A DNA stretch of 38,275 nt from Promethearchaeota archaeon (GTDB lineage Archaea > Asgardarchaeota > Lokiarchaeia > Sigyniarchaeales > SOKP01): assembly GCA_016839585.1 (NCBI GenBank), contig JAEOTZ010000029.1, forward strand, positions 1 through 38,275. Reading direction: 5' to 3'. How positions within the stretch are numbered: position 1 is the stretch's first letter; every line of letters starts with the position of its first letter. The position numbers and the translations under genes were made by a program. The notes under the pieces were generated by a model that did no database searches, had not been told where the DNA came from, and worked only from the letters and a program-made list of their open reading frames with translations. Shown piece after piece: positions 5,168-38,275 of the stretch.

Positions 5168-6217
5168 TTAAACTTGATGAATGATATTTGTATTATCATT
5201 TGAGTCATTTTTAAGAATGCTATAGATAATTTCTGAAAAGTAATTAGGATTTCTGCTTTCTATTAGATAACAATTGGAATTTTTAACAACCTCAGACAAG
5301 ATATTTTCCTCCAAGTTTAATAAATCATTTAAATCCTTTTTAGAATTCAAATAAAAATACATATATATCATATCAGATAATCTTCCTAATTCGGATTTAT
5401 TAATATATAGTATTTTTTGAAATGCAAGAGTTTTGTTAATCTTTTTCCATCGTTGTTGTGAATTTTCTATTATAAAAGCTTTAGTGATTTTTATTTTATC
5501 TTTAATTGATACATCTAAGGCTTTATAAATGTCTTTAGCATCAATAGGACCCAAATATGCTGAAATAAATGGAATTTCCGTTAATATAGTTCTTAATTTT
5601 CCCATCTGGAATAAATTCTTAGATTTTTTATTCAGATATCCAGCAAATTTAAGAGTTCGATAATTTATTAAACGTGGTAAACAATAAGCATATCCTTTCC
5701 CATCTAAAATTATAAAATCATCCGATAAATAACATGTTGAATTATTTTTTAAACATCTCAATACTGTGGTAGTCTTTCCGGTATCTGCAAATGCTGAAAT
5801 TAATACCCCTTCATCTTTATATGATATGCAAGCAGAATGTAGCAGACTATATCCTTTTATCAAAAATTTTAGTTGCAATAATGAATTTATAAAATCATGA
5901 AAACTTATTGGAAGTCTGGTGTAATAGTATGCTTTATTCATCAATAATTCAGTTTTTCCTTGTAAATTTTTTAATAAAGCTCTTGTTCTAAAGCCACCAA
6001 TTTTATTTTCAAGATATATCAGATTGCCATTCTCTATTCCATAATAGTATAAACCAATTTTTTTATATTCATTTGTTTTTATGTTAAAATCTTTAAGTAA
6101 TTTAATATCTAAATCATAATCACATTTATCAACTTTAAAGTAATTAAACCAAAGATCCAAATTTGATCGAACCTTTAATATCCCATGAAAATCATAATAA
6201 TATTGTAATTTGAGCAC
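5168..6217 (-). CDS. HprK-related P-loop kinase
   Basis: LLHSACI...GVLISAFADTGKTTT (Walker A) followed by YLSDD: the H...GKT...DD signature of the HPr kinase/PEPCK-like fold. GTG start. Confidence 0.7.
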   Translation of the reverse strand: MLKLQYYYDFHGILKVRSNLDLWFNYFKVDKCDYDLDIKLLKDFNIKTNEYKKIGLYYYGIENGNLIYLENKIGGFRTRALLKNLQGKTELLMNKAYYYTRLPISFHDFINSLLQLKFLIKGYSLLHSACISYKDEGVLISAFADTGKTTTVLRCLKNNSTCYLSDDFIILDGKGYAYCLPRLINYRTLKFAGYLNKKSKNLFQMGKLRTILTEIPFISAYLGPIDAKDIYKALDVSIKDKIKITKAFIIENSQQRWKKINKTLAFQKILYINKSELGRLSDMIYMYFYLNSKKDLNDLLNLEENILSEVVKNSNCYLIESRNPNYFSEIIYSILKNDSNDNTNIIHQV

Positions 6218-6609: not shown

Positions 6610-7149
6610 ATGGATGAAGAAGAACTCATAATGAAGGATGATTTTCAGGGACTATTTGATAATCAAGAAACAGTGCATTATTGTTTAAAATCTATAAGTG
6701 AGATAAAGAAAAAATCATTAGAGCAGATTCCAAGGCAATTATCAGATTTAATAATTTCACAAATAATTGTTTATTTATTAATTCTATCGGCGATAATTGC
6801 GTTTATAATTTTTAATCTTATGAATTTAAACTATTCTATTATTTTAATCGATGTTGGAATTATATATTTAAGTTTTTTATCATTAAAATACTTAGAAAAT
6901 AAATATTATAAAATCTTAAAAATTAGCAAAAGAAAATTTTACTATTTTATGAAACAAAAGAAAAGAACTGAGGAGTATTCAAAGTTTTACATAATTTTTC
7001 ATTTAATTATAATTATCCTAACTAGTTTCATATTAATCTCTTCTTTAATAGAAAGTAATATAATGAATTTAATTTTTTTATTTGGATTCACTTTAATATA
7101 TATTTATTTTGATAAAGATCTTGAAACTCTTAATGATCGAAAGGATTAA
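6610..7149 (+). CDS. Hypothetical small membrane protein (~4 TM)
   Basis: 179-aa ORF with four hydrophobic stretches separated by a basic loop; no motif recognised. Confidence 0.6.
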   Translation: MDEEELIMKDDFQGLFDNQETVHYCLKSISEIKKKSLEQIPRQLSDLIISQIIVYLLILSAIIAFIIFNLMNLNYSIILIDVGIIYLSFLSLKYLENKYYKILKISKRKFYYFMKQKKRTEEYSKFYIIFHLIIIILTSFILISSLIESNIMNLIFLFGFTLIYIYFDKDLETLNDRKD

Positions 7150-15518: not shown

Positions 15519-17462
15519 ATGACATTAATTCTATCACTTATTAAAACATACTTTATTTTCATAATTTTTTCTTTAATTATTTCTCTATTTGGATATATTT
15601 TTATTTATATTTTCCAAAAACATAGTAAGAAGAAATGGAATTTATCTTTACTTGAGTATGGTTTTATTTCTTACGCTGTGGGGATATTAATATACATTTT
15701 AATCTCATACATACTTAGTTGGTTTAAGTTTTTTAATTTTTTTACTGCATTTTTACCTTTTATAATAATTTCTTTAATATTTTTATTGTTTTTGTTTAAA
15801 AAGAAGAAAATTCGGGAAGCTTTACCTCGAATTAGAAATTATTTAACTTTGAATTATAAAGAGATTGTTATAAACATCTTTATTTTAACAGTTATTTTTT
15901 TATTTCAATTTTTAACTCTTTGGCCGAAAATATCAAAAACTTCAGCACTTTTATCCAGAGATTCTTATTATTGGACTAGACAAATACTATCTCTTAATGA
16001 AAATGGGATTGTGAATTATTCTGAGCATGGTTCTTTATATCCATGGGGTTTTATTTTATTCTGTGGAGGAAATTTATTAATCTCAAATGATTTTATTACG
16101 ACCTATTATTTTATGAAATTAGCCTGTTTTCCTTTTTTGAATTTCTATATTTTAGTTATGTTTTCAATTTCTAAGAGAATTTTTAAAAAAAATGTTTTAA
16201 TTTTTTTTTGTTTGATTTCAATTTTGAGCCAAATTTTCTTTATGTATAGAACATTGATGTTTCTATCATCATCTATTACTGTTTTGTTGATTTTAATTTC
16301 ATTGATAATACTTTTAACTGAAACTCCAAATTATTTTTTATGTTTTATTATACCTGCAACATTTTTATTCAATCCTGTATACGCTTTTTATTTCATTTTA
16401 GCATTATCAATTTTTTATATTATAAAATTGATAAATTTGAATAGAAATAGGATTTTGATTTATAAAGAAATTATAGCAATTAGCTCATTATCGATAATTT
16501 TAGTTATTCCATATGTAATAAGTGCTTTCTTTTTTTATGGTAAAGATCTAATTAGTCTCATTGATTCTTTTTGTCGCTTTTTCGAGATAAAAAACTTTCA
16601 CCGATCTAATAGTTTAATTGAAACCCCCCCGAATTTTCAGTCAAAATTGTTTTTATTAAATTTATTTAACATTGAATTATATGAAATTCAATTTCTACTT
16701 TATATTGGATTCATTTTTCTTTTACCAATTTGGAGTTTCTTTTTAAAAATTGAAACTCAAGATGATAGACGTAAAGATTTTATTATCTTTTTAAAAGTAG
16801 GATTTATCTTGACAATTTTTATCTTACTTACGCCTTTCTTTTTTAGTACAATTAGATTTTTTAAGACATTTTATATAAGAATATTAGAAGCATTTATCCC
16901 TTTTTTAATACTTCTTTCAGGATTTTTTTTTGAACAAGTTTTATCTAAAGCTGAAAAATTATGGGGTAATACTAAGCTAAGATTCAAAAAAGTTAAAAAA
17001 TGGGCAGAAAAAAATAAATTCAATAAAAATATATTGAATCTTCCTTCACTTTCAATAATTTTAATGCTTGTATTTTCTCTTTTTGCGTATAATTATTCCA
17101 GAATTCATACAGTTACTCATTATTATTATGATGACTCTTTAGTTAAATGTTGTTTTTATATTAATGAAAATATTGAAGAAAACGCAGATATAGCAGTTTA
17201 CGATCTTAATGAACCATCTATCCATTCTAGTGCAATTTATTACTTATTATACCGTTATGATTTAATCTATTATCGATTTAATGAAAATGTAACCTTAAAT
17301 GAATTTTGGGCATTTCTGCAAGCAAATACAATTGAAAATTTAATTATAAACTTGTCATATTACACTCAGGATTTCATTGATGATCTTTCTTCTAATAGTT
17401 CTTTTAATTTATTATTAGGCGGATTAACGAACGGAGAATTCTCTTTATATCAGATATTATAG
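15519..17462 (+). CDS. Polytopic membrane protein, GT-C-fold glycosyltransferase-like (paralogue-like of 7330..9402)
   Basis: SRDSYYW and YPWGF match ACDPYFW and FPPGF of 7330; TYYFMK vs IYFFLK; SKRIFKK vs ARSIFKN; RILE vs RYFE; soluble C-terminal domain. Confidence 0.6.
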   Translation: MTLILSLIKTYFIFIIFSLIISLFGYIFIYIFQKHSKKKWNLSLLEYGFISYAVGILIYILISYILSWFKFFNFFTAFLPFIIISLIFLLFLFKKKKIREALPRIRNYLTLNYKEIVINIFILTVIFLFQFLTLWPKISKTSALLSRDSYYWTRQILSLNENGIVNYSEHGSLYPWGFILFCGGNLLISNDFITTYYFMKLACFPFLNFYILVMFSISKRIFKKNVLIFFCLISILSQIFFMYRTLMFLSSSITVLLILISLIILLTETPNYFLCFIIPATFLFNPVYAFYFILALSIFYIIKLINLNRNRILIYKEIIAISSLSIILVIPYVISAFFFYGKDLISLIDSFCRFFEIKNFHRSNSLIETPPNFQSKLFLLNLFNIELYEIQFLLYIGFIFLLPIWSFFLKIETQDDRRKDFIIFLKVGFILTIFILLTPFFFSTIRFFKTFYIRILEAFIPFLILLSGFFFEQVLSKAEKLWGNTKLRFKKVKKWAEKNKFNKNILNLPSLSIILMLVFSLFAYNYSRIHTVTHYYYDDSLVKCCFYINENIEENADIAVYDLNEPSIHSSAIYYLLYRYDLIYYRFNENVTLNEFWAFLQANTIENLIINLSYYTQDFIDDLSSNSSFNLLLGGLTNGEFSLYQIL

Positions 17463-23349: not shown

Positions 23350-24498
23350 ATGTGTTATAAAAATACAAAAATAATAAAAGTTTGTATTGTTTCACATTGG
23401 GGATATCCCCTATATAATAAAAAATGTAAAGATACTTTTGGTGGTGGTTCAGCAGTTCAATTATATCTCTTATCAAAAGCATTTGCCAATAATAAAAATT
23501 TTAATATTCATATTATGACTGGCAATCATGATATGACTAAAAATAGAATTGAATTTATAGAAAATATCTTGCTCTATAGTATCCTACCCATTAAAAGAAC
23601 ATTTCTAAATTATTTCCGTTATATTCTTAATATTTTTAAATATTTAATCTTAATTAATCCTGATGTTGTTATTCAAAGAGGTTCCGGTGTTAAAACAGGG
23701 CTTATAGCGCTTTATTGTAAGTTATTTAAAAAGAAATTTATCTACTCAGTTGCGAGTGCAAAAGACGTAAATGGTGTCTCTGAGAGGGGGCTTAAGGGTA
23801 AATTTTTCAAATTTGGTATTGATAATGCAGATTTTATAGTGGCTCAAAATGATGACCATATTAATGAATTAGAAACATATAAACAAAAAAAATTTAAAAA
23901 CCTTAAGGTCATAAGAAGTGGATATGAAATTAATGAAATTGACATTAAATTTAACGAAAGTATCTTATGGGTTGGAAGAGCAATTAAATTAAAAAGACCT
24001 GATCTATTTTTAAAACTTGCTCAAAAATTTCCTAATGAAAAATTTATTATCATTTGTTATAAGAGGAAAAAGGATATAGATTATTGGAAGTCTATTTATA
24101 ATGAAGCCAAAAAAATTTTTAATTTAGAATTTATAGAATTTGTTCCCTTTCATAAAATTGCTAACTATTTTAAAGAAGCTAAAATATTTATCAACACATC
24201 GACATATGAAGGATTTCCCAACACATTTATTCAAGCTTTTATGAATAAAATACCTGTTATTAGTTTAAATGTGGATCCTGATGATATTATAACAGAAAAT
24301 AAGACTGGGTTTTTTTGTAATGACGATTTTAATAAAATGGAGGAAAATTTGAAATTAATACTTGAAAATAAGGAATTATATAAACAGTATTCAAATAATT
24401 CTTACAATTATGCAAAAAAAAATCATGATATTAAAAAGATAAGTGATGAATGGTTTTTATTAATTCGAGAACAACAAAAAAAAAAAAAGAATTATTAG
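23350..24498 (+). CDS. GT4 family glycosyltransferase (paralogue of 20955..22082)
   Basis: GGGSAVQ, WVGRAIKLKRP, NTSTYEGFPNTFIQA. Confidence 0.92.
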   Translation: MCYKNTKIIKVCIVSHWGYPLYNKKCKDTFGGGSAVQLYLLSKAFANNKNFNIHIMTGNHDMTKNRIEFIENILLYSILPIKRTFLNYFRYILNIFKYLILINPDVVIQRGSGVKTGLIALYCKLFKKKFIYSVASAKDVNGVSERGLKGKFFKFGIDNADFIVAQNDDHINELETYKQKKFKNLKVIRSGYEINEIDIKFNESILWVGRAIKLKRPDLFLKLAQKFPNEKFIIICYKRKKDIDYWKSIYNEAKKIFNLEFIEFVPFHKIANYFKEAKIFINTSTYEGFPNTFIQAFMNKIPVISLNVDPDDIITENKTGFFCNDDFNKMEENLKLILENKELYKQYSNNSYNYAKKNHDIKKISDEWFLLIREQQKKKKNY

Positions 24499-24514
24499 TA
24501 TGGGATCCTATAAA

Positions 24515-24619
24515 ATGTGTGGAATTTGTGGATTCAATTTCGAAGATTAGCAATTGCTAATCAAAATGTGTGATCTTCTCGAACATAGAGGTTCTGATCA
24601 TGCGGGTTATTATGTTGAT
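24515..24619 (+). pseudogene. asnB: N-terminal remnant of an AsnB-family glutamine amidotransferase (asparagine synthase-like)
   Basis: Translates MCGICGFNFED*QLLIKMCDLLEHRGSDHAGYYVD: Ntn-amidotransferase MCGI start and HRG(P>S)D motif. In-frame TAG at 24548-24550; similarity ends at about 24620. Not in the ORF track. Confidence 0.8.
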
Positions 24620-24648
24620 TACTGGAACAGACATGCGGAATTATCAAT

Positions 24649-24846
24649 ATGATTAATTATCTTGAAAACTGCTTGTTGCCGGATCTCTTGATTGTGGGGG
24701 CTATGAAAACCCGAACTATCTCGATGGTTTGCTATCTGAACGAGCCAATAACACGCAAGGTACCTGAAAAACATTGGCGAAGGAAAAGAGCGTCGGAGAA
24801 CTTTTTAAACCATTTCACGAGGAATTATTTTTGCTGGCTGGACTAA
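24649..24846 (+). pseudogene. Degenerate N-terminal fragment of a PAPS-dependent sulfotransferase
   Basis: LPDLLIVGAMKTRTISMVCYLNEP resembles the 5'-PSB motif LP(D/N)FxIIGAxKxGTTSLxxYLxxHP; NHFTRNY..LD resembles the following 'HFF..Y..GLDWY'. Stops after 65 aa. Confidence 0.6.
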
Positions 24847-24950
24847 ATTATAAGTATAGCATAGTAGGTGAAATATCGTTTTGGAAATAGATAATTTTAT
24901 AACGAATGAATGCACATCCTCATTAGATAGGAAAAACTGAGCGTGAACAT

Positions 24951-25712
24951 ATGATAAAACGTGTCGCCTTTAAGGCAAAACGAATCAGGTCTAAGTTAAG
25001 ACGTATCCCACGAAAGATAAAACGTGTACCACGCAATATCCTTTGGCAACTCTTCCCCACCAAAACGAAGGAATGGTACGCACTGGGCACCTGGAAGCGG
25101 AAGAAAGCAGTAGAAGGACGACTGAAAAATAGCCATTTCAAGGAATTCTATACAAAACACTTTGAAATCGAGGATAGCTTCTATTCAGGCAAAAGGATAC
25201 TGGATATCGGTTGCGGTCCGCGCGGGAGTCTCGAGTGGGCAGACATGGCCTTGGAGCGGATAGGGTTGGATCCTCTGGCGAAACAATATCTTAAACTTGG
25301 CGCCGATGAGCATAAAACAAAATATGTAGCGGCCTATTCCGAGTCGATTCCCTTTGATGACGATTACTTTGATGTAATATCCTCCTTCAATTCATTAGAT
25401 CATGTTGCAGATGTTCAAATCACGATATCAGAGATCAAGCGCGTACTTAAGCCGGGAGGGGAGTTCTTGTTATTAACGGAGTTAAACCACAAGCCCAAAA
25501 TTAGAGAACCCCAGGTTTTTTCATGGGATATCGTCCATGCTTTTCTACCTGAATTCGAGATCCTGAACGAAAAACATTATGAAATGAAAGTAAAAGGTAT
25601 GTATGAGAGTATCCGCTATGGCATACCCTTCAATCATTCGGATCGCTCTAAACGTACTGGCATTCTTTCGGCAAAATTCCGCAAATTTGGGTATTTAACC
25701 TTTGGCAAATAA
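24951..25712 (+). CDS. Class I SAM-dependent methyltransferase
   Basis: ILDIGCGP (motif I), GLDP, ESIPFDDDYFDVI, NSLDHV, EIKRVLKPGG. Confidence 0.92.
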   Translation: MIKRVAFKAKRIRSKLRRIPRKIKRVPRNILWQLFPTKTKEWYALGTWKRKKAVEGRLKNSHFKEFYTKHFEIEDSFYSGKRILDIGCGPRGSLEWADMALERIGLDPLAKQYLKLGADEHKTKYVAAYSESIPFDDDYFDVISSFNSLDHVADVQITISEIKRVLKPGGEFLLLTELNHKPKIREPQVFSWDIVHAFLPEFEILNEKHYEMKVKGMYESIRYGIPFNHSDRSKRTGILSAKFRKFGYLTFGK

Positions 25713-26029
25713 AATAATAGAAAAACTGCTCGCGAAATGGGATGCCTTGATTTTGGCAGTTTTTGTGGAGAATGCATGTAACGACAGTGCCGCAACAAAA
25801 ATTGGAGGTACATTACCTTAACAGAATGATTGAGGTTTTTCCTCTTAAACCAAATGTTTCTAAACCGTTTTGATTTGCAGGAATGTTATTTTAAAAGCAA
25901 GAAAACATAACATGAACAAATCAGCTATCCTGCTACTGTCAATTCCAAAGCTGGAGACAGTGGTTGAAATATTATCTAAATCGGTAATCGTTTCTACGGG
26001 AAGGCATTCGAAGAGAAGGATAGAGAAAT

Positions 26030-26107: not shown

Positions 26108-27095
26108 TTTTTGCGGGGATAATATATTTGTTTATTCTATTTTATTTATTTATTTATAAAAAAAAATAAACTTAAAGACGATAATAATATCCATTTCTTC
26201 GATTATAATTGGAATGGGCACATTAATCTTTGGGTTTTATTTAATGGGTGGTTCTTTTATCCCTATAAGTGCAAAAGTTAAAACCTCATTAAACCAAAAT
26301 CCTACATTTCCTCAATATTTATTTAATATTATGTTCATTAATACTATATTGAAATTTCCATTCAGTGAAATTTTCTCAGCAATTCTTATAATATTTCTGA
26401 TCTCACTTAATTTGAAATTCCTCTCTGTTTTTTTAAAGGAAAAAGAAAAAAAAATTTCATTGAAAAGTTTGATAATGATATTATCATTATCTAATTTTAT
26501 ATATAGTTTGATTGTAGGATATGTATTTTATTGGTACTATATTTGGTACTTATCTTTAACTTTCATTCTCTGGGCAATTGTAATCACTTATATAATTACT
26601 GTTATAATAACCAAATTTCAAGAGAAAATTCATATCTCTAATAGAAATTTCAATTATAAAAAAAAAATTTCTTATGTATTTATGATATTTATTTCAACAT
26701 CCATTCTGGGCTTTATAGTATTAAATGAAATCGATTATTATTTTAATTATCGTTATTCCATGCGTTATAATGCAGCAATTTGGTTAAAGTCTAATACAAA
26801 TGAGGAGGATATTATTGGATCTTGGAATGCAGGTCAGATTGGGTTTTTTCCAGATAGAAGAGTCATCAATCTCGATGGATTAATAAATAATTATGATTAT
26901 TATGAAAGAATATTATTGAATGATAATAAATTCAATTCAAGTGAATTTGTGGAATATCTTAACGAAAACAATGTATCATATATTGTTGACTATAAGTTTT
27001 ACGGATTTAAACCATGGTATGCAAATTTTACATTAATCAAGGAATTTACATCTCAACGATACGATACGATACAGGTTTGGGCTAAGATTCCTTAA
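26092..27095 (+). pseudogene. 5'-truncated, frameshifted GT-C-like membrane protein
   Basis: The frame of ORF 26214 extends upstream (KINLKTIIISISSIIIG) to an A9 run at 26158-26166. The adjacent frame reads LYDSIIFAGIIYLFILFYLFIYKKK, and adding one A joins them. C-terminal AIWLKSNT..IGSWNAGQIGFF..VINLDGLIN is typical of GT-C soluble domains. Confidence 0.65.
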
Positions 27096-28263: not shown

Positions 28264-29409
28264 TTACTTAAAAGTTAGAAAATCGTAAAAACGTTCACAA
28301 AAAGCTTTCTTTCCTTCCTTTGTCCATAATCTTTTATATGTATCTTGTCCATTTTTAGCTAATTCATAAAGAAGTGTTTTATCTGCCAAGATTTCATTAA
28401 ACTCATCGTCCCAATTCTCAATTTTCCAAGATATTGGTATATATGTTGCTTGTTTTTTATATAAATTTGGCCAAGTTTCTACATGATCCATATCAGGCTT
28501 TATCAATGCCGCACCTGCTATAAAAGCTTCAAAATCTCGAAAACAGATTTCTCCCCATCCAAAAGGACTACAAATTGACTTAGATTTTCTTAAATTTATT
28601 AAATAATCCTTTTTAGGCAATTTTCCTATAGATATCTTCTGGTTAGACTTATACTTTTCTTTTAAAAACTTCAAGAGAGCATGTCGCTGAAAATAATATT
28701 TTGGTTTAGTAATTTTATAAGAGAAATTTGCAGATAAAAGTATTTTTCGGTTTATACTTGGCTTACAAAAATTCATTTCATTTTTTCTTGTAAAACCATA
28801 TAAAAATCTATCAAGAATATTAGTAAAACGATAATCTGTTAATGCAAGGTTCCATGATAGGCTGACTTTATGATTATATTTTGGATCAAGAGGAGTATAA
28901 TTTAAAAATTCATTTTTTTTATTGTATAATTTGTCTAAATTATATTCTTTATTATAAAAGTTAATATAGATTCTGCTTTCTTTTTTAAAAGAATTTTTTG
29001 TATAGAAAGTACGGTCTTTAAGAATAGACCTTTTTAAATATCGATCAACATAAGGTAATACTTCAAATCGAGTGGTTCCTGTACTGGCAGTGTTATCAAA
29101 CCATATTAAATAATCAGTTTTTTTCTTTAACACTTTAAGAGTTGATAATAATTCTTCCTTATTTCTTAATGGTACCATTGTACCAAGGAATTTACAATCA
29201 ATTCCTACTATTTTTGAAAAATTTGTTTTTTTTCTAAAAATTCTACCAAAATCATGTAAAAATCGGACATTGATGCCCATATTTTTAAGTTCCTTTTTAT
29301 AATACCATACGGGAAACCAGTAGGAATTCCACTTATAGGTAGGGAAAGAATAGTTTTGGTATTTTCGAAAAGGGGTGAGTGTAGGGATAAATATATCCAC
29401 ATTAAGCAT
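28264..29409 (-). CDS. Putative GT-B-fold glycosyltransferase (atypical family)
   Basis: C-terminal YLINLRKSKSICSPFGWGEICFRDFEAFIAGAALIKP resembles GT-B nucleotide-binding domains (Glyco_trans_1_2/exostosin-like); glycan-locus context. Confidence 0.55.
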   Translation of the reverse strand: MLNVDIFIPTLTPFRKYQNYSFPTYKWNSYWFPVWYYKKELKNMGINVRFLHDFGRIFRKKTNFSKIVGIDCKFLGTMVPLRNKEELLSTLKVLKKKTDYLIWFDNTASTGTTRFEVLPYVDRYLKRSILKDRTFYTKNSFKKESRIYINFYNKEYNLDKLYNKKNEFLNYTPLDPKYNHKVSLSWNLALTDYRFTNILDRFLYGFTRKNEMNFCKPSINRKILLSANFSYKITKPKYYFQRHALLKFLKEKYKSNQKISIGKLPKKDYLINLRKSKSICSPFGWGEICFRDFEAFIAGAALIKPDMDHVETWPNLYKKQATYIPISWKIENWDDEFNEILADKTLLYELAKNGQDTYKRLWTKEGKKAFCERFYDFLTFK

Positions 29410-29588: not shown

Positions 29589-31244
29589 TTATTTTCTTCT
29601 TGTAAGTTTCTTTAAAACATTTAAAGTTTTAAGCATAATTCTATTTAAGAATTTATCCTTACTTAATAAAGACTCAAAATATTCAATATCAGGTGATTTT
29701 ACAATTCCAAAAGCTAGATTCATTAATATAAAGAGTGCAAAGAATACTATAATAGAAAAGAAGTCAAGATTTATGAAGAATGTTAACCCTAAACCATCTA
29801 AAATTGTCCTGCTGATTTCCTTTAGTATTAAATTCCCCAAAATTACCGTAATAACTAAAGGGATAAAAAAAGTTAAGTATTGCAATATAATCCTTTTAAT
29901 ATTTATTTTAATATTTCCAATTTTGTAAATTGAGTAAACTTGTATTATTAATGATATTATATTTCCGATTATTAAACCAAAGATTATTGCACCCTCAATC
30001 CCGCCATAGATTAAACCGATAAAAAACAATGGTATAGAATACGTCGTATAGAGCATATTTAATAGAAATGACATTTTTACTTTATTCTGGGCGTTTAAAA
30101 GCGATAGGACAAAGATTTTGAATATTTGAAAAATTGCCGCAAGAACAAATAATTTAAGAATATTTGAAAAAATTATACGAGATTCGAGAAAAACAAAATC
30201 TAAGAAAAAGTCTACACTAAAAAATAGAATTCCAGATAAAATTAATAATAAGAATAATGTAATCCTATTCGCAATCTTAAAAATTTTAACAAGTTGGTAA
30301 TAATCCTTTTTTGTACTCAAACTTGTAAAAGAAGTCATTAAAGGAAAATAAAAAGATCCTACTGACACTTGCCCGATATTACTGTAATTTAAGGCGATAT
30401 TAAATCCAGTAACTGCTCCTGCCGATTCAAAGAATCCAATACTTTGTAGTTGTACTTCTCTCCAACCCTTTGCAATAAGATTAGAAAAAGTTGAATAACC
30501 ACCATATTTCACACTTTTCAAAATATCTTTTTTAAATGGTTCTATCTCATTCCCTACCGGCTTAATTCTAATTACTTTTATCAAAACATATAAAAACTTT
30601 AAAATAAATGGAATTAAGGAAGAAATCATGACAATCAAGGCTATAGTACCAATATTAATATTAATATCAAAAATATAGTAAATTAATAAAGGGCAAATAT
30701 GAAAAGCATTTTTTATGAGCAATATTAGAAAAAGAAAATTAAATTTACTAAAACCTCTATTTATAGCATCTAAAAGAGAGCCTAAACTATTGAAAAAAAT
30801 AGTTGGAGATAAGATAAATAAAATAGATACATTATCTTCCAAATTAATTGCAAATAAATCTTCAAAAATAGTGAAAAAAACGATGCTTATTAGAAGAATA
30901 ATTATTATAAATAATGATTTTATAATTAGTGTATTTTTAATTAATGCCTTGATTTTTTTTTTCTCATTTAAGGCAAGATATCTTGGAATATAATAATTTA
31001 AGGCATCACTCAGTCCTGGTGGTAATAAGGTTATAATAATATCAATAATTGTTATATATGAGGTTGCTAATATTAGAAAGTCCCAAGTTCTATTTGAAAT
31101 TAATCGTGCTAAAATAAAAGAATATATTAATGTGAAAAAAAAGGATCCATAATTTATTAAATAAGAGTAAAATGTATTTGTAGCTAATCTTTTGTACTCT
31201 TTATTATTTTTTAATTGATTATTTTCATGGTTATTATTTACCAT
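29589..31244 (-). CDS. Second Wzx/MurJ-like (MOP) oligosaccharide flippase, divergent from 3707..5038
   Basis: LATNTFYSY, ILARLIS, GLSDALNYYIPRY, AVTGFNIA, YGGIEGA; about 14 hydrophobic segments. Confidence 0.8.
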   Translation of the reverse strand: MVNNNHENNQLKNNKEYKRLATNTFYSYLINYGSFFFTLIYSFILARLISNRTWDFLILATSYITIIDIIITLLPPGLSDALNYYIPRYLALNEKKKIKALIKNTLIIKSLFIIIILLISIVFFTIFEDLFAINLEDNVSILFILSPTIFFNSLGSLLDAINRGFSKFNFLFLILLIKNAFHICPLLIYYIFDININIGTIALIVMISSLIPFILKFLYVLIKVIRIKPVGNEIEPFKKDILKSVKYGGYSTFSNLIAKGWREVQLQSIGFFESAGAVTGFNIALNYSNIGQVSVGSFYFPLMTSFTSLSTKKDYYQLVKIFKIANRITLFLLLILSGILFFSVDFFLDFVFLESRIIFSNILKLFVLAAIFQIFKIFVLSLLNAQNKVKMSFLLNMLYTTYSIPLFFIGLIYGGIEGAIIFGLIIGNIISLIIQVYSIYKIGNIKINIKRIILQYLTFFIPLVITVILGNLILKEISRTILDGLGLTFFINLDFFSIIVFFALFILMNLAFGIVKSPDIEYFESLLSKDKFLNRIMLKTLNVLKKLTRRK

Positions 31245-31552: not shown

Positions 31553-33058
31553 ATGAATATTTTCTGGATTGTGACCGATTCGATATGTAGCTATGAAAGA
31601 TCTGATCTGCATAGTTTACTTCCAATCTACAAAAAATTAAAAAAAAATAAAGAAGGTTTCTTTTTTAAAGACGCATTATCTCAGTTCACATCAACAAATT
31701 TATCTATTTTTTCATTTTTAACAGGTAGATTTCCTTATTATATATTTCCTGATTATTACCCTTCAATCAAATTTCTTCCAAGTTATAAATATAAAAATAA
31801 TATCATCCCATTGAAGAAAAAAAATTATAAGATTCAAGCAATTATGCACTCGAAAGAAGCAGTCGATGTTTTTAAGGATATTCTTAATCCATATTATGTG
31901 AATAATATGTATCATGGAGATCATTTGTTAGATAGTAAAGAAGTTTACCATTTTTTAGCTGAAAAAATTAATGAACTCGATATAAATGAGAACAATTTCA
32001 TATATGTACATTTCAGACCAACTGATCCTGAAACAAATTCATACATGAATAAAATAGTTTATTTATTAAAGGAGATGGGTTTTTGGGAAAAATCCATCAT
32101 TATTATTAATTCTGATCATGGTTATTATGATAAGTCAATTTATAAAAAGATAAATTTAATACATTTTAATGATATTCACCAAACCTCATTATTATCAGCT
32201 TTATTTATAAAATTACCCCCCAATTTAACATCTAAAATCCCAAGAACTATTAAAAAAAGAGTTTATTTAATGGATATTATGGAAACAGTTCTTGATTATC
32301 TTAATATTAAAGCAGATCATGAGAGAGAATCAATTTCTTTTAAAGAATTAATAGAAAAAGATATAGATATTAATAAAAACAGAAAAATTAGAGGAGATTG
32401 TTATTTAATGTTTCAACCAATTAAAAAAACCACGATAATCAAAGATAATTGGAAGCTTTTTAATAATAACGGAAAATTTGCCTTGTATAATCTTAATGAA
32501 GATAATCTAGAAAAAAAAGATGTAAAAAAAAAATATCCTAAGATTTATACCGAACTGTATCAATTTTATTTGGAGACAGAATTGAAAGCTTATAAAATAT
32601 TTAAATCAACCCTAAATACACTTTATAATCATAATAATTTGACTTTACTAGAATATGAGAATATTTTAGTTCCTCATCAATTTCCTCCACAACTAGCAAA
32701 TTATTTAAAAGAAAAGTTAAAGATAAAGAATAAAATAGTGAAACCATCTGAAATCGGTATCTCAAATTCAATCAAAAATCAAAGCTTGATTACAATTCTA
32801 TTTTTTAATAGATTAACTGGTTATAGATTAAAAAAACTGCAAAGAAAATACAGAAAATATACAAAAAAATTCATAATTTTAGATACAGCATTATCTGATG
32901 TATCAGATCAAATAAATAATACTGGTTATATGAAATTTGTTATTAGATCATTAATTACCCGAAAAAAACAGTTGTTTCAAAGATGGAAAGAGATACTAGT
33001 ATGGACTTTATATTTTCCACTTTATTTCAATAAATTTATGAAAAAATACTATAATTAA
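31553..33058 (+). CDS. Alkaline phosphatase/sulfatase-superfamily protein with Thr at the nucleophile position
   Basis: MNIFWIVTDS (metal Asp9), T48-NLSIFSFLTGRFP aligned to CxPSRxxLLTG, YVHF, INSDHG, WKL...ALYNLNED.LE. Confidence 0.75.
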   Translation: MNIFWIVTDSICSYERSDLHSLLPIYKKLKKNKEGFFFKDALSQFTSTNLSIFSFLTGRFPYYIFPDYYPSIKFLPSYKYKNNIIPLKKKNYKIQAIMHSKEAVDVFKDILNPYYVNNMYHGDHLLDSKEVYHFLAEKINELDINENNFIYVHFRPTDPETNSYMNKIVYLLKEMGFWEKSIIIINSDHGYYDKSIYKKINLIHFNDIHQTSLLSALFIKLPPNLTSKIPRTIKKRVYLMDIMETVLDYLNIKADHERESISFKELIEKDIDINKNRKIRGDCYLMFQPIKKTTIIKDNWKLFNNNGKFALYNLNEDNLEKKDVKKKYPKIYTELYQFYLETELKAYKIFKSTLNTLYNHNNLTLLEYENILVPHQFPPQLANYLKEKLKIKNKIVKPSEIGISNSIKNQSLITILFFNRLTGYRLKKLQRKYRKYTKKFIILDTALSDVSDQINNTGYMKFVIRSLITRKKQLFQRWKEILVWTLYFPLYFNKFMKKYYN

Positions 33059-33239: not shown

Positions 33240-34931
33240 ATGAGCTTAAAAAATCGAATTTCACCTGAAGATAGAAGGAAATCCTTAAAAAATTTACTTA
33301 AAGAAAAAGATTTTATAAGAGCTATTGAAGCTCATAATGGTTTAAGTGCAATAATTGCTAATGATATTAAAGAAAAAGTAAGAAACGAAATTATTGAATT
33401 TGATGCCATTTGGGAAAGTAGTTTAACGGATAGTGCCACAAAGGGCTATCCAGATGCTGAAATAATAGGACCAGAATCTAGATATGAAACGATACGCCAA
33501 ATTTTACATAGCTCTCATAAACCATTAATAGTAGATGGAGATACTGGCGGAGAAGCAACAAATTTTGAATATTTTGTGAAAAATTTGGAAGATTTTGGTG
33601 TTTCAATGGTTATTATTGAAGATAAAAAATTTCCAAAAAGAAATAGTTTGGAAGCGGGGGCAATACAAATCCAAGAAGATCCAGATATTTTTTCGATAAA
33701 GATTAAAAGAGGTAAAAGTGTTTTATTATCGCAGGATTTTATGATAGCAGCTAGAATAGAAAGTCTTATTTCTGGAGCAGGAATAGAAGATGCCTTATTT
33801 AGAGCTAGAAAATATTTAATGGCTGGTGCTGATGCGATAATGATCCATTCAAAGGATTCAAAACCTAATGACATTTTTAAGTTTGCTGAGGAATATAATA
33901 AGTTAAGCTCTGAATTAGGTTTTAGAAAGCCATTAATATGTGTTCCTACTACATATAATACCATTACGGAAGACCAATTAAAAGAACATGGCTTTAATAT
34001 TGTGATATATGCAAATCATCTTTTACGATCATGTCATAAAGCTATGAAAGAAACAGCCTCTTTAATTTTGAGGAGTCAAAGATGTTTTGAGGCAGAACCT
34101 ATGTGCAGTTCTGTTAATACTATTTTTAAAGATGTAGGTTTTCTTGAAGTAAAAGAAAAAGATATGAAATATTCTAAAGGAAAAACACGTGTAATCATAC
34201 CCGCAGCAGGTAAAGAACCAATTTTCAAAATTCCTAAATCAATGATAAAAATTAATGGAAAACCAATTCTTCAAAGACAAATAGAAACTTTAAATAGCTG
34301 CGGTATTTATAACATTACTGTTGTTAGGGGATTTAAAAAAGAACTTATTGATATTCCAGGAGTTAAATATATTGATAATGAGTATTATGAAGATTATGGA
34401 TTATTATATTCTTTATTTAGAGCAGAAAGTGAAATGGAAGGGGGATTTATCTATATAAATTCAGATATATTGTTTGATAGACATATCATAAATTCTCTTT
34501 TAGAATCTAAAAAGGATATTGTTTTGGTTGTTGATAATTCTTATGCTTACCATAAACATGAGATTGACAAAAGATTAGATCTAGTTATGACATTGAATAA
34601 GCCATCTGACCAAAGGAGATTATTATATTCTCGAGATAATGAAGTAATAAGAATTGGTAAGAATATAGATAAAAGTATGGCAGACTATGAATACATAGGG
34701 ATTGCTTATTTTTCTGAATATGGTATTGATATAGTAAAAAAAATATTTCATGATTGTAGTTCTAATAATAGAGGATGTTTTCATGCTGTTTCTATTGAGA
34801 AAGCTACTTTTAATGATTTTATTCAAGAAATAATTGATCGTGGTTTTAAGGTTCATAATCTAGAGATACATAAAGGATGGATAGAGATTCATAATAAAAA
34901 AGATCTTGAACTGGCTGAAAAGCTAATTTAA
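33240..34931 (+). CDS. pepM: Phosphoenolpyruvate mutase fused to a C-terminal NTP-transferase (LicC/PntC-like) domain
   Basis: PEP mutase signature EDKxxxxxNS (EDKKFPKRNS, 33618-33647), EAHNGLSA, WESSLTDS, DGDTG, IYANHLLR. From about 34191: VIIPAAG..PKSMIKINGKPIL...SDILF...GWIEIH. Confidence 0.95.
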   Translation: MSLKNRISPEDRRKSLKNLLKEKDFIRAIEAHNGLSAIIANDIKEKVRNEIIEFDAIWESSLTDSATKGYPDAEIIGPESRYETIRQILHSSHKPLIVDGDTGGEATNFEYFVKNLEDFGVSMVIIEDKKFPKRNSLEAGAIQIQEDPDIFSIKIKRGKSVLLSQDFMIAARIESLISGAGIEDALFRARKYLMAGADAIMIHSKDSKPNDIFKFAEEYNKLSSELGFRKPLICVPTTYNTITEDQLKEHGFNIVIYANHLLRSCHKAMKETASLILRSQRCFEAEPMCSSVNTIFKDVGFLEVKEKDMKYSKGKTRVIIPAAGKEPIFKIPKSMIKINGKPILQRQIETLNSCGIYNITVVRGFKKELIDIPGVKYIDNEYYEDYGLLYSLFRAESEMEGGFIYINSDILFDRHIINSLLESKKDIVLVVDNSYAYHKHEIDKRLDLVMTLNKPSDQRRLLYSRDNEVIRIGKNIDKSMADYEYIGIAYFSEYGIDIVKKIFHDCSSNNRGCFHAVSIEKATFNDFIQEIIDRGFKVHNLEIHKGWIEIHNKKDLELAEKLI

Positions 34932-34958: not shown

Positions 34959-36095
34959 ATGATTGAATTTATTGAAAATGGCTCTATTAAAAATCTTAAA
35001 CGCATTTTAAAAGAAAATAACTTTGAAAATATTTTTTACATTACAGGTAATTCACCTTTAGAACAAGGTAATGTTGATAAAATCCAATTTATAATTGAGA
35101 ATGAATGTAAATTTTTTCATTTTAATGATATTGCACCTACACCAACAGTAGAAGGTATTAAAAAGGCACTAAATTTATTTAAGAAAGGTAATTATGATTT
35201 AATTTTAGCTATGGGAGGGGGGTCTGTTTTAGATATTGGTAAAAGTGTATCAATTTTTTCTACTAATAAAGGAGAAATTAAAGATTTTCTTTTAAAGAAA
35301 CTAAAAATTAAAAGAAAAGGTACTCCATTAATATTAATTCCAACTACAGCAGGAACGGGTAGTGAGGCTACTCATTTCGCCGTTATCTTTATCGAAAAAA
35401 CAAAATATTCTTTAGCAGATCCTAAAATTTTACATGCGGATTATGCAATCGTAGACCCTGAATTAACATATAGTCTCCCTAAGAGAGTTACTGCTTATAC
35501 AGGTATGGATGCATTAAGTCAGGGAATAGAATCTTATTGGAATATCAATTCTACAGATGAATCAAAAGAATATGCAAAAAAAGCAATAGAGCTTGTTATG
35601 AATAATTTATTAAAAGCTGTTCATAATCCTAATGAAGAATCTAGATACAACATGGCACTTGCCGCTAATTATGCTGGAAAAGCTATAAATATAACAAAAA
35701 CAACAGCATGTCATGCCATTTCGTATCCTATTACCTCATGTTTTAATGTACCTCATGGCCATGCAGTAGCTTTAACTTTACCTTCTATGATTGTCTTTAA
35801 TTCGAGAGTTAATGAAAATGATGTATTAGATACACGTGGAGTTGAATACGTAAAAAATATTATGAGTAAATTAGTCTCTATAATAGGTGTTTCTAGTTTT
35901 ATTGAAACAAAAGAAAAAATCAAAAATTTAATGGTAGATATTGAATTAGAAATAAAATTACAGGATTTGGGAATAAAATCTCAAGAAGATATTGAAATAA
36001 TTATAAAAAATGGTTTTAATCCTGATAGAGTTAAAAATAATCCGAGATTATTAACAGAAACTCAGTTAAGAAAGATTTTAGAAGAAATAAGATGA
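34959..36095 (+). CDS. Fe-containing (group III) alcohol dehydrogenase; probable phosphonoacetaldehyde reductase (PhpC-like)
   Basis: GGGSVLD, IPTTAGTGSEAT, DALSQGIES, TTACHAISY, PHGHAV; located between pepM and ppd. Confidence 0.88.
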   Translation: MIEFIENGSIKNLKRILKENNFENIFYITGNSPLEQGNVDKIQFIIENECKFFHFNDIAPTPTVEGIKKALNLFKKGNYDLILAMGGGSVLDIGKSVSIFSTNKGEIKDFLLKKLKIKRKGTPLILIPTTAGTGSEATHFAVIFIEKTKYSLADPKILHADYAIVDPELTYSLPKRVTAYTGMDALSQGIESYWNINSTDESKEYAKKAIELVMNNLLKAVHNPNEESRYNMALAANYAGKAINITKTTACHAISYPITSCFNVPHGHAVALTLPSMIVFNSRVNENDVLDTRGVEYVKNIMSKLVSIIGVSSFIETKEKIKNLMVDIELEIKLQDLGIKSQEDIEIIIKNGFNPDRVKNNPRLLTETQLRKILEEIR

Positions 36096-36808
36096 AAGTT
36101 ATATTATTAAATGCGGGGATAGGTAAAAGGTTAGCCCCTTTAACCAACAATTTGCCAAAATGCCTTGTAAAAATAAGTAATAATGAAACAATTTTAGATC
36201 ATCAATTAAAAAATATTCTTAAGTATGGATTTAAAGATTTTATCATTCCAACAGGTCCGTTTGAGGAGAAAATTAAAAATCATATTATAGAACATTATCC
36301 TTCAATTAACGTTCAATATATTAATAATCCACTTCATGACAAAACAAATTATATATATTCCATATATTTAGTAAAAGACATGATTAATGATGATGTTTTG
36401 TATTCTCATGGGGATTTAATATTTTCTGGAAATTTAGTAAAATTATTACTTAAATCGAGTTATAAAAATTGTGTATTAGTTAATAAAGAAATTCCACCTC
36501 CAGTAAAAGACTTTAAAGCAATTATATTAAATGATAGGATAAGTAAGATTGGAGTTAATTTGTTTGGACCAAATACAGCATTCTTAGCCCCATTATACAA
36601 ACTAACTAAGGAATTTATGTTAAGTTGGCTTAATCAAATAGAGAAATTTATAAATGATAACAAAGTAAATTATTATGCTGAAGATGCTTTAAATGAAATT
36701 CTGGATACTCTTGTTCTAAAACCTTGTTATTATAATGAATTCTGTGTCGAAATTGATGATTATGAAGATTTAGAAGGAGTAAAAAATTATTTTAATAATA
36801 ATAAGTAA
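36092..36808 (+). CDS. Phosphocholine/phosphonate cytidylyltransferase-like NTP transferase (LicC/PntC family)
   Basis: LLNAGIGKRLAPLTNNLPKCL, TNYIYS, HGDLIF, EIDDYEDL; ATGA overlap with the upstream stop indicates translational coupling. Confidence 0.85.
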   Translation: MKVILLNAGIGKRLAPLTNNLPKCLVKISNNETILDHQLKNILKYGFKDFIIPTGPFEEKIKNHIIEHYPSINVQYINNPLHDKTNYIYSIYLVKDMINDDVLYSHGDLIFSGNLVKLLLKSSYKNCVLVNKEIPPPVKDFKAIILNDRISKIGVNLFGPNTAFLAPLYKLTKEFMLSWLNQIEKFINDNKVNYYAEDALNEILDTLVLKPCYYNEFCVEIDDYEDLEGVKNYFNNNK

Positions 36809-36831: not shown

Positions 36832-37968
36832 ATGATTTCTTGCGAAAATTTTTTTGAAATTCTAAAAATTAATAATTTTACATTCTTTACAGGAATTCCA
36901 GACTCAACTTTTAAAGATTTGATGAAATTCTTAGCTGATAATGAAAGTAAAGATCTAAGAAATATTGTTGCATGTAATGAATGCGAAGCTATTGCATTAG
37001 CATCTGGTTATCATTTAGCAACTAATAGAGTAGGAATTGTATATATGCAGAATTCCGGACTCGGAAAGGCAGTCAATCCTTTAACATCCTTATGTGATCC
37101 TGATGTATATTCAATTCCTATTCTTTTAATGATAGGATGGCGTGGTGAACCTGGAAAAATTGATGCTCCTCAACATAAAAAAATGGGAAAGATTACATTA
37201 CCATTATTGGACACACTCCAAATACCTTATATCGTATTGGAACCAGATTTGAGTGTGGTTAAAAAAGAACTTACTAAAGCATTAAATTATTTCAATAAAA
37301 ATAAGGGTCCTTACGCTTTTGTTTTTCGAAGAGGTTTCTTTAAAGATTATGAAATGAGATTTAAGCAATTAAATAACTATAGTCTAACCACAAAAGAAGT
37401 AATTCAATTGATTATGGATAATTTGAACAACGATGAAATCATTGTTTCAAATACAGGTTATATTACACGAGAGCTATATGAATATAGAGAATCAAGAAAT
37501 AAAGATCATCATAAAAGTTTTTATAATATTGGATCTATGGGGTGTGCTAGCTCGATAGGATTAAGTATAGCGCTACACAAACCAAAAAATAGAGTTATAG
37601 TATTTGATGGAGATGGTGCAGCTATTATGCAAATGGGTGCTTTTACAACAATAGGAAAAAATTCACCTTCTAACTTTGTCCATATTATTTTAGATAATGA
37701 AGCTCATGAATCTACTGGTGGTCAACCAACTAATTCATCTAATGTTGACTTTGTTAATGTAGCTTTAGCATCAAATTATAAATGGGTTGTTCGAGTTGAA
37801 ACCACAGAAGATTTATTAAAATCGATTGATAAAATTAAAAACCGAAAGGGACCAATCTTAGTATTAATAAAAATCAAAATTTATTCTAGATCAGAATTAA
37901 AAAGACCAAGTAAAAGTCCAAAAGAGTATAAAGAAGGATTTATGAGATACTTAAATGATTTAGATTAA
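36832..37968 (+). CDS. ppd: Phosphonopyruvate decarboxylase (single-chain, ThDP-dependent)
   Basis: FFTGIPDS, YMQNSGLG..VNPLTSL, GWRGEPG..D.PQH..MG, TGYITREL, GSMG, DGDGAAIMQMG...DN..HESTGGQ. Confidence 0.93.
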   Translation: MISCENFFEILKINNFTFFTGIPDSTFKDLMKFLADNESKDLRNIVACNECEAIALASGYHLATNRVGIVYMQNSGLGKAVNPLTSLCDPDVYSIPILLMIGWRGEPGKIDAPQHKKMGKITLPLLDTLQIPYIVLEPDLSVVKKELTKALNYFNKNKGPYAFVFRRGFFKDYEMRFKQLNNYSLTTKEVIQLIMDNLNNDEIIVSNTGYITRELYEYRESRNKDHHKSFYNIGSMGCASSIGLSIALHKPKNRVIVFDGDGAAIMQMGAFTTIGKNSPSNFVHIILDNEAHESTGGQPTNSSNVDFVNVALASNYKWVVRVETTEDLLKSIDKIKNRKGPILVLIKIKIYSRSELKRPSKSPKEYKEGFMRYLNDLD

Positions 37969-38089
37969 GGAACTTAATATTTACCTATAAAAATTTATTT
38001 TTTATGAACATTTTTATATGATATGAAATTTTTTATGATAAAATATAATTTAATAAAAAAATAAGATTTTTTTAATAAAAAGTAAATAA

Positions 38090-38275
<186 letters not shown>

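What the first reader, a model, noticed from the sequence alone, without database searches (positions are those of the whole stretch)
31553..33058. Thr-nucleophile 'sulfatase-like' protein as candidate phosphonate transferase
Seen: AP-superfamily metal motifs (D9, H in YVHF, SDHG). The formylglycine motif CxPxR is replaced by T48-N-L-S-I, so this is not a conventional sulfatase. There is no N-terminal signal or TM segment, and there is an extra ~150-aa basic C-terminal domain. It lies immediately upstream of pepM. No LicD, TagF, Stealth or CDP-alcohol phosphotransferase gene is visible in the window. Established: Thr-nucleophile AP-superfamily members include EptA, LtaS, PIG-N/O and phosphonoacetate hydrolase, and sulfatase-annotated genes also flank the Nitrosopumilus phosphonate cluster. 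Inference: a cytoplasmic enzyme that transfers HEP from CMP-HEP to a glycan, the step otherwise missing here.
Basis: partly seen in the sequence, partly recalled or inferred. Interest (0 to 1): 0.72.

Follow-up and report, generated by a model that had tools for sequence, protein, structure and literature searches.

The report
Sulfatase-fold candidate phosphonate transferase in Asgard
A soluble, sulfatase-shaped enzyme with threonine in place of the usual sulfatase catalytic residue sits beside the phosphonate-making genes of an Asgard archaeon, and comparison with related loci points to it as the unidentified enzyme that attaches the phosphonate to a cell-surface sugar chain, though no experiment shows this yet.

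Summary
ORF 31553-33058 encodes a 501-aa leaderless protein with a type I sulfatase fold. Thr48 sits where sulfatases have the formylglycine Cys, and D9 and S187-D188-H189-G190 are invariant. Residues 345-501 form an extra basic domain, and pepM starts 182 bp downstream. One detail fails: the His of 'YVHF' is not conserved.

The genome is an Asgard archaeon. Close homologues occur only in Asgard archaea: 13 of 18 informative loci have an intact pepM operon just downstream, and 2 more have remnants.

A much wider leaderless Thr/Ser family occurs in bacterial and archaeal glycan loci, and some members are fused to GT4 glycosyltransferases. In the window's own superclade the gene always lies next to a cytidylyltransferase. 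That partner is fused to PepM, a TagD equivalog, or a small one beside a phosphonate-type ABC importer.

Three Asgard pepM operons that lack this gene carry a TagF-like CDP-alcohol transferase instead.

I read it as a cytoplasmic phosphonyl (HEP) transferase fed by a CMP-activated donor (about 0.45). Rivals are a lipid relay through a CDP-alcohol phosphotransferase that is adjacent in most sister loci, a hydrolase, and the genome's own TagF-like gene on another contig.

First readers of this scan proposed the same idea on other genomes. Nothing here is biochemical.

The parts
31553..33058 (+). Leaderless sulfatase-fold (alkaline-phosphatase superfamily) protein of 501 aa, the candidate phosphonyl transferase
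   Evidence: Translation. Pfam Sulfatase PF00884 E 2.5e-7, residues 2-155 only. AF2 model pLDDT 84.6; Foldseek top hits are S1 sulfatases, E 5e-13. 57 Asgard-only close homologues.
31694..31696 (+). Codon of Thr48, the predicted nucleophile at the position of the sulfatase formylglycine Cys
   Evidence: Thr in 19 of 20 family members and Ser in one. Thr 86 / Ser 34 in 120 wider relatives. Aligned to the Cys of CxPxR in solved sulfatases.
31577..31579 (+). Codon of Asp9, a predicted metal ligand at the end of strand 1
   Evidence: Invariant in A1. D or E in the wider family.
32111..32122 (+). S187-D188-H189-G190, the metal-binding DH motif
   Evidence: Invariant in A1 and A3. Aligned to the SD(H/N/Q)G motif of sulfatases and LtaS.
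32162..32164 (+). Codon of His204, an invariant His 15 residues after the DH motif
   Evidence: Invariant in A1 and in 52 wide-family sequences. Its role is inferred.
32585..33055 (+). Extra C-terminal domain (residues 345-501): a small Rossmann-like alpha/beta unit plus a long basic, aromatic terminal helix
   Evidence: AF2 of the domain alone, pLDDT 85.2. pI 10.07. No significant PDB match: Foldseek best E 5e-3, VIA best Z 5.6.
33240..34931 (+). PEP mutase fused to a C-terminal MobA-like NTP (cytidylyl) transferase domain
   Evidence: TIGR02320 329 bits, over the cut-off of 319.55. PF12804 E 4e-9 at residues 319-436.
34959..36095 (+). Iron-containing alcohol dehydrogenase, the likely phosphonoacetaldehyde reductase that gives HEP
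   Evidence: PF00465 and PF25137. TIGR03405 Phn_Fe-ADH 191.6 bits, below its cut-off.
36092..36808 (+). Stand-alone LicC/sugar-phosphate type nucleotidyltransferase
   Evidence: PF00483 E 3.4e-13. Conserved in all Asgard pepM operons examined.
36832..37968 (+). Phosphonopyruvate decarboxylase
   Evidence: TIGR03297 438.9 bits, over the cut-off of 312.5.
29589..31244 (-). Polysacc_synt (Wzx-like) flippase, transcribed divergently from the sulfatase-fold gene
   Evidence: PF01943 E 1.8e-7. A 50-58% identical homologue (91% in the near-identical relative L004) lies upstream of the gene in 14 related loci.

Best explanation
The gene encodes a soluble, cytoplasmic enzyme, probably attached peripherally to the membrane. 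It derives from the type I sulfatase fold but uses Thr48 and one metal site (D9, D188, H189, with H204 and D18 nearby) instead of formylglycine.

Proposed pathway:
1. The adjacent operon makes 2-hydroxyethylphosphonate (PepM, Ppd, Fe-ADH).
2. The operon's cytidylyltransferases activate it to CMP-HEP.
3. Thr48 attacks the phosphonate phosphorus, CMP leaves, and a phosphonyl-Thr enzyme forms.
4. The phosphonyl group passes to a hydroxyl of a lipid-linked glycan on the inner face of the membrane.
5. The neighbouring flippase then exports the glycan.

What is shown: the fold, the residue conservation, the lack of a leader or TM segment, and the genomic associations. What is inferred: the donor, the covalent intermediate, the acceptor, and transfer rather than hydrolysis.
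For: Fold and active site:
- Sulfatase fold with Thr/Ser at the nucleophile position and conserved metal ligands.
- No leader or TM segment.

Linkage to pepM:
- 13 of 18 Asgard loci with at least 5 kb downstream have an intact pepM-NT/ADH/NT/ppd operon. Two more have pepM or ppd remnants.
- Independent linkage in bacterial glycan loci: L029 and L031, 7 of 42 metagenome loci, and several separate clades on the tree.

Linkage to cytidylyltransferases:
- In the window's superclade the gene always lies next to one. The partner is PepM-fused or stand-alone in Asgard loci and L029, a TagD equivalog in L123, and a small one beside a PhnD-type ABC importer in L126.
- Sister Asgard loci carry an NT plus an organophosphate:Pi antiporter-like MFS right after the gene, even where pepM is lost.

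Other context:
- Relatives are fused to GT1/GT4 domains.
- Three pepM operons without this gene have a TagF/TarF-like CDP-alcohol transferase directly adjacent.
- No LicD, TagF or CAPT gene in the window or in L029/L031 apart from a distant CAPT-like gene in L029.
Against: - There are no biochemical data, and no AP-superfamily enzyme is known to use a CDP/CMP-activated donor (my own knowledge).
- At least 15 of 25 Asgard loci have a CDP-alcohol phosphotransferase directly upstream that could do the transfer itself.
- The window's genome has a TagF-like gene on C54 and six CAPT genes elsewhere.
- Seven of ten PepM-positive Asgard genomes sampled have no close member of the family at E <= 1e-30; five of them, searched more loosely, showed only ordinary sulfatases or nothing.
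- MK-D1 keeps its copy 308 kb from pepM.
- Most wider-family members are not near pepM or a cytidylyltransferase.
- The loops around the active site (residues 9-16 and 200-202) are modelled with low confidence.
Confidence: 0.45

Rival explanations
1. Lipid relay. A CDP-alcohol phosphotransferase first moves HEP from CMP-HEP onto a membrane lipid alcohol, making a phosphonolipid. The sulfatase-fold enzyme then takes the head group from that lipid through Thr48 and puts it on the glycan. This is how LtaS, EptA and OpgB use phosphatidylglycerol or phosphatidylethanolamine, but here it would happen on the cytoplasmic leaflet.
For: A CAPT-like gene (PF01066, 28 bits, with His in place of the last motif Asp) lies directly upstream of the gene in at least 15 of 25 Asgard loci. 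Distant CAPT-like genes recur near relatives in L066 (adjacent), L029, L100, L048, L091 and L056. All known Thr/Ser transferases of this superfamily use lipid donors (established knowledge). The basic, aromatic C-terminal helix suits membrane-surface binding.
Against: The window, its 98% relative L004, and L020 lack the CAPT gene but keep the sulfatase-fold gene and the pepM operon. L031 and L123 have no CAPT within reach. The best match to the Asgard CAPT-like protein in the own genome is a weak hit on C3, 29% identity, E 1.5e-4.
Confidence: 0.2
2. Hydrolase. The enzyme is a phosphodiesterase or phosphonate-monoester hydrolase. It might release free phosphonate from CMP-HEP (the role FomD plays in fosfomycin synthesis), proofread mis-activated nucleotides, or free phosphonate from imported esters.
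For: By sequence and fold the nearest solved relatives are hydrolases: S1 sulfatases and phosphonate monoester hydrolases such as 4upk, 2vqr and 2w8s. Transporters lie beside it: an MFS in Asgard loci and a PhnD-type ABC system in L126. MK-D1 has a NUDIX hydrolase next to it.
Against: Where a transporter is present, a cytidylyltransferase lies between or beside it and this gene. Importing a compound, activating it with CTP and then hydrolysing it would be futile. Fusions to GT4 enzymes and the constant glycan-locus context argue for an anabolic role. A hydrolase would not be replaced by a TagF-like transferase in sister operons.
Confidence: 0.2
3. The HEP transferase of this genome is the canonical TagF-like enzyme on contig C54 or one of the six CAPT enzymes. 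The sulfatase-fold protein would then add or process a different substituent of the same glycan, such as glycerol phosphate or sulfate, or would have a non-catalytic role.
For: The own genome has a TagF-like gene 40% identical to the pepM-adjacent one of G034. Most wider-family members sit in glycan loci without pepM. The L123 relative sits beside a TagD equivalog, which implies a glycerol-phosphate substrate there. Agl7 of Haloferax volcanii is needed for sulfation of a dolichol-linked hexose (PMC3892788). From memory it may be a sulfatase-family protein; I could not verify this.
Against: The C54 gene lies in a different glycan cluster with no phosphonate genes. The Asgard clade is tied to pepM operons or their remnants in 15 of 18 informative loci. 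All catalytic residues are strictly conserved.
Confidence: 0.12

Closest known systems
Type I (formylglycine) sulfatases, SulfAtlas family S1, and the related phosphonate monoester hydrolases (e.g. 2vqr, 2w8s, 4upk)
   Same: They share the catalytic alpha/beta fold, including the C-terminal antiparallel-sheet subdomain. They are the best structural and profile matches: Foldseek E 5e-13, family profile E 6e-13, wide-family profile E down to 8e-31. The DH(G) metal motif and the LTGR-like helix after the nucleophile are kept.
   Different: The Cys/Ser-x-Pro-x-Arg motif is replaced by Thr-Asn-Leu-Ser-Ile, so formylglycine cannot form. The second Asp of the DD pair is Ser or Gly. There is no secretion signal. 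There is an extra basic C-terminal domain. The context is biosynthetic rather than catabolic.
LtaS / EptA (MCR-1) / OpgB / BcsG head-group transferases of the alkaline-phosphatase superfamily
   Same: They have a Thr or Ser nucleophile at the same structural position and one metal site built from an acidic residue plus a DH pair. They act through a covalent phospho-alcohol enzyme intermediate that is resolved by an acceptor other than water (established knowledge). LtaS-type chains are found by the profiles (E 1e-3 with A1, 2e-11 with A3).
   Different: Those enzymes have an N-terminal multi-span membrane domain, work outside the cytoplasmic membrane and take head groups from phospholipids. 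This protein has no TM segment, is closer to sulfatases than to them, and is genomically tied to cytidylyltransferases.
TagF/TarF, LicD and CDP-alcohol phosphotransferases (canonical CDP-alcohol-dependent transferases)
   Same: This is the proposed reaction type: transfer of a phospho- or phosphono-alcohol from a cytidine-activated donor to a glycan or lipid on the cytoplasmic side. A TagF/TarF-like gene occupies the neighbouring position in the Asgard pepM operons that lack this gene.
   Different: There is no sequence or fold relationship. Those enzymes use direct displacement without a covalent enzyme intermediate (established knowledge).
Sulfatase-annotated genes noted beside pepM/mpnS clusters of marine bacteria and Nitrosopumilus
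   Same: Lockwood et al. 2022 (PMC9381506) list arylsulfatase A among the neighbours of pepM and mpnS. They read this as a potential for phosphonate ester synthesis, and cite the earlier analysis of the Nitrosopumilus maritimus cluster.
   Different: Those notes give no residue-level, topological or comparative analysis and no function. I could not test whether those genes belong to the Thr/Ser family described here.

Membership tests
Type I formylglycine sulfatase (S1) | Sulfatase alpha/beta fold with the C-terminal subdomain | tested here: met
   Foldseek top 30 or more hits are all S1 sulfatases, E 5e-13 to 1e-9, TM about 0.5. Profile against PDB: E 6e-13 with A1 and 8e-31 with A3.
Type I formylglycine sulfatase (S1) | C/S-x-P-x-R motif that is converted to formylglycine | tested here: not met
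   T48-N-L-S-I in the window. There is no Cys at this column in any of 20 family members or 120 wider relatives (Thr 86, Ser 34). The Pro and Arg are also lost.
Type I formylglycine sulfatase (S1) | Full set of metal ligands and sulfate-binding residues (DD pair, Arg of the motif, Lys/His pairs) | tested here: inconclusive
   D9, D188 and H189 are kept. The second Asp is Ser or Gly, and the motif Arg is Ile, Leu, Val or Met. Other positions could not be mapped without model coordinates.
LtaS/EptA/OpgB-type head-group transferases | Thr/Ser nucleophile plus an acidic residue and a DH metal site | tested here: met
   T48, D9 and D188-H189 are conserved.
LtaS/EptA/OpgB-type head-group transferases | N-terminal polytopic membrane domain with an extracytoplasmic catalytic domain | tested here: not met
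   The fold starts at residue 3. The highest 19-residue hydropathy mean is 0.91, so there is no TM segment.
LtaS/EptA/OpgB-type head-group transferases | Phospholipid head group as donor | not testable with these tools
   Only context bears on this: a CAPT-like gene is adjacent in most sister loci but absent from the window.
Nucleotide pyrophosphatase/phosphodiesterase and phosphonoacetate hydrolase (PF01663) | Match to the family model over its cut-off, and a two-metal site | tested here: not met
   PF01663 E 0.0087, 16.1 bits against a cut-off of 23, covering residues 164-223 only.
Leaderless Thr/Ser sulfatase-fold family of glycan loci (unnamed, defined here) | No leader, an S-x-x-S-[TS] nucleophile motif, SDHG, an invariant His about 15-25 residues later, length 490-600 aa | tested here: met
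   A profile of the Asgard clade finds 572 representatives at E <= 1e-10. 120 were inspected and all have Thr or Ser at the nucleophile column; most start at about residue 5 with no leader.

The most novel reading that the evidence does not exclude
The protein represents a widespread, uncharacterised class of cytoplasmic sulfatase-fold transferases in bacteria and archaea. Members would use cytidine-activated phosphonates or phospho-alcohols (CMP-HEP, CMP-AEP, CDP-glycerol) as donors. They would pass the head group through a covalent Thr/Ser intermediate onto lipid-linked glycans before flipping. That would make them a third, non-homologous solution beside TagF and LicD, and the missing phosphonyl transferase of many phosphonoglycan clusters, including marine ones.
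Probability: 0.4. Interest if true: 0.78.

Novelty: new variant of a known kind. Interest (0 to 1): 0.62.

Why it matters
Phosphonates on cell-surface glycans hold a large share of marine organic phosphorus. How the phosphonate gets from its CMP-activated form onto the polymer is still described as enigmatic (Rice et al. 2019, PMC6697681).

This gene family gives a concrete, testable candidate with a predicted nucleophile, Thr48. It occurs in a cultured Asgard archaeon (MK-D1) and in marine bacteria.

If confirmed, the alkaline-phosphatase superfamily would gain a new donor type and a new cellular side of action. It would also allow phosphonoglycan producers to be recognised in metagenomes. 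For Asgard archaea, it would show that their surface glycans can carry phosphonates.

Tried and rejected
- C-terminal domain: I folded residues 340-501 alone and searched PDB with Foldseek and VIA-align. The best hits were generic Rossmann-like folds (HGPRT E 5e-3, Z 5.6), so there is no informative match.
- GT link for the C-terminal domain: hhalign against the GT part of a fused relative gave probability 0.1, so there is no relation.
- Wide alignment as a metagenome query: A3 had no stretch conserved enough, and I had to use the narrower A4.
- Names in the protein collection were uninformative for the wide family.
- Papers: I found no characterised sulfatase-fold phosphonyl transferase. The Metcalf 2012 paper is not held.
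- Agl7 of Haloferax volcanii: I could not confirm from the held papers that it is a sulfatase-family protein, and its supplementary table is not held.
- 'Canonical transferase just outside the window' was rejected. The 98% relative L004 and the parallel contig end C5 show an epimerase, a 759-aa protein with no family, two small unknown ORFs and small GTPases downstream of ppd.

Full report
**What is there**

The window is a whole 38,275-bp contig (C12) of a 3.45-Mb genome that is 99% complete. Homologue names and related loci place the genome among Asgard archaea (Promethearchaeota).

ORF 31553-33058 (+) gives a 501-aa protein, P0001. Pfam sees only a marginal Sulfatase match: PF00884, 30.7 bits, residues 2-155. 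Three ordinary sulfatase genes elsewhere in the genome score 96-167 bits.

Downstream, on the same strand, lie:
- PepM fused to a MobA-like NTP transferase (TIGR02320, 329 bits);
- an Fe-alcohol dehydrogenase;
- a LicC-type nucleotidyltransferase;
- phosphonopyruvate decarboxylase (TIGR03297, 439 bits).

No AEP transaminase over its cut-off exists in the genome. By established chemistry the operon should therefore make 2-hydroxyethylphosphonate and cytidylylate it. PntC-type activation is described in PMC6697681.

The rest of the window is a glycan island: two flippases, about a dozen GT1/GT2/GT4 genes and epimerases.

**The protein**

An alignment of 20 family members shows D9, D18, S47, S51, S187-D188-H189-G190, H204 and D207 as invariant. 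T48 is Thr in 19 and Ser in one.

The AF2 model (pLDDT 84.6, pTM 0.85) is matched best by type I sulfatases (Foldseek E 5e-13). This includes their C-terminal sheet subdomain.

Profile searches of PDB agree. Sulfatases and phosphonate monoester hydrolases come first and LtaS-type enzymes come later. T48 falls opposite the formylglycine Cys.

There is no leader and no TM segment.

Residues 345-501 form an extra small Rossmann-like domain that ends in a long basic, aromatic helix (pI 10.07). It has no informative structural relative.

The protein is therefore a sulfatase-derived enzyme that cannot make formylglycine. It keeps one metal site and a hydroxyl nucleophile, and it stays in the cytoplasm.

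**Close relatives and their loci**

All 57 close homologues come from Asgard MAGs or sediment metagenomes. A scan of species-representative genomes gave 25 loci, including the cultured Promethearchaeum syntrophicum MK-D1.

Eighteen loci have at least 5 kb downstream of the gene:
- 13 have the intact pepM-NT/ADH/NT/ppd operon;
- 2 have only pepM or ppd remnants;
- 3 have none.

MK-D1 has its pepM operon 308 kb away.

Most loci are richer than the window. A CDP-alcohol phosphotransferase-like gene, with His in place of the last motif Asp, lies directly upstream in at least 15 loci. A nucleotidyltransferase plus an organophosphate:Pi antiporter-like MFS lie directly downstream.

The window, its 98% relative L004, and L020 are a stripped form: flippase, this gene, then the pepM operon.

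**Wider family**

A profile of the clade finds 572 cluster representatives at E <= 1e-10. Of 120 inspected, all have Thr (86) or Ser (34) at the nucleophile column, and nearly all of those that match from the N-terminus have no leader. Several are fused to GT1/GT4 domains.

Among 80 metagenome loci of one bacterial branch, 7 of the 42 with enough flank carry pepM or ppd. The others sit in polysaccharide loci rich in GT4 enzymes, methyltransferases and flippases.

On a tree, pepM linkage appears in several places:
- the Asgard clade;
- the L029 branch;
- a uniformly linked marine clade (L031-L039 plus L100);
- three scattered members.

**Cytidylyltransferase link**

Within the window's own superclade, every informative locus puts the gene beside a cytidylyltransferase:
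- PepM-fused and free ones in Asgard loci and in L029;
- a TagD equivalog (177 bits, over its cut-off) in L123;
- a 157-aa cytidylyltransferase between a PhnD-type ABC importer and the gene in L126.

A transporter, a cytidylyltransferase and this gene therefore occur together twice, independently. That arrangement fits salvage, activation and transfer. It does not fit hydrolysis.

**Displacement**

In a sample of 201 Asgard genomes the family occurs in 5 and PepM in 10, with 3 holding both.

Three PepM-positive genomes without the family carry the same operon, with PepM 68-71% identical. Each has a TagF/TarF-like CDP-alcohol transferase directly beside the operon. None has a CAPT gene or a close relative of the window's flippase by tblastn.

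This looks like non-orthologous replacement. It is the strongest hint that the sulfatase-fold gene performs the transfer step. It rests on only two genera.

**Caveats**

The window's genome also has a TagF-like gene, 40% identical to that of G034. It sits at the edge of another glycan cluster on C54. The genome also has six CAPT genes.

The CAPT-like neighbour recurs near relatives outside Asgard, so a lipid relay remains open.

Nothing here is biochemical, and the active-site loops are poorly modelled.

**Literature and earlier notes**

Sulfatase-annotated neighbours of pepM and mpnS have been noted before (PMC9381506). I found no characterised enzyme of this kind in the held literature.

First readers of this scan raised the same idea on other genomes. 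I tested their CAPT and transporter leads here.

**Verdict**

It is a new variant of the Thr-nucleophile alkaline-phosphatase-superfamily transferases. Interest 0.62.

Noticed in passing
window 37300-38275 and G000 contig C5 92443-93369 (L003 17300-18370): The end of contig C5 carries a truncated copy of ppd: the last 163 codons, 86.5% identical in protein. It is followed by the same intergenic region and the same epimerase gene start as the end of the window. This is either a second, decayed copy or a strain-variant fork of the assembly.
   Followed up: partly
L008 11923-12090 and L019 10422-10711: Two Asgard loci keep an intact sulfatase-fold gene, but only fragments of pepM (residues 3-58) or ppd (residues 281-377) remain beside it. 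The phosphonate operon has decayed while the gene stayed.
   Followed up: partly
L005 7911-8717 (and homologues in at least 15 related loci): The CDP-alcohol phosphotransferase-like gene upstream of the sulfatase-fold gene has the motif D-x2-D-G-x2-A-R-x8-G-x3-D-x3-H, with His in place of the usual fourth Asp.
   Followed up: partly
window 33240-34931 versus L115 9651-10958, L029 5787-7085: PepM is fused to a cytidylyltransferase in two different ways. The window type has a C-terminal MobA-like NTP_transf_3 domain. MK-D1 and the bacterial loci have an N-terminal CTP_transf_like domain. These look like independent fusions.
   Followed up: no
window 475-2226 (-) and L127 17956-19611 (-): A 551-583 aa protein with a ubiquitin-conjugating (UQ_con) domain and an RWD domain flanks the glycan island in the window. 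In G034 it lies right next to the pepM operon and the TagF-like gene. The island between them therefore looks like a variable insertion.
   Followed up: no
window 24001-26000: GC content rises to 0.35 around the methyltransferase gene, against about 0.25 for the rest of the contig. The contig as a whole (0.251) is lower than most other contigs of the genome (0.28-0.31).
   Followed up: no
window 5168-6217, 6610-7149, 7330-9402, 15519-17462, 26214-27095, 28264-29409; L003 14319-16598: Seven ORFs of 179-759 aa in or just beyond the glycan island have no Pfam or NCBIfam family. The only match is a weak RXYLT1_C hit for 28264-29409.
   Followed up: no
L025 9174-9740: In MK-D1 a NUDIX hydrolase gene lies between the NT-MFS pair and the sulfatase-fold gene. 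This hints that a nucleotide-linked intermediate is turned over there.
   Followed up: no
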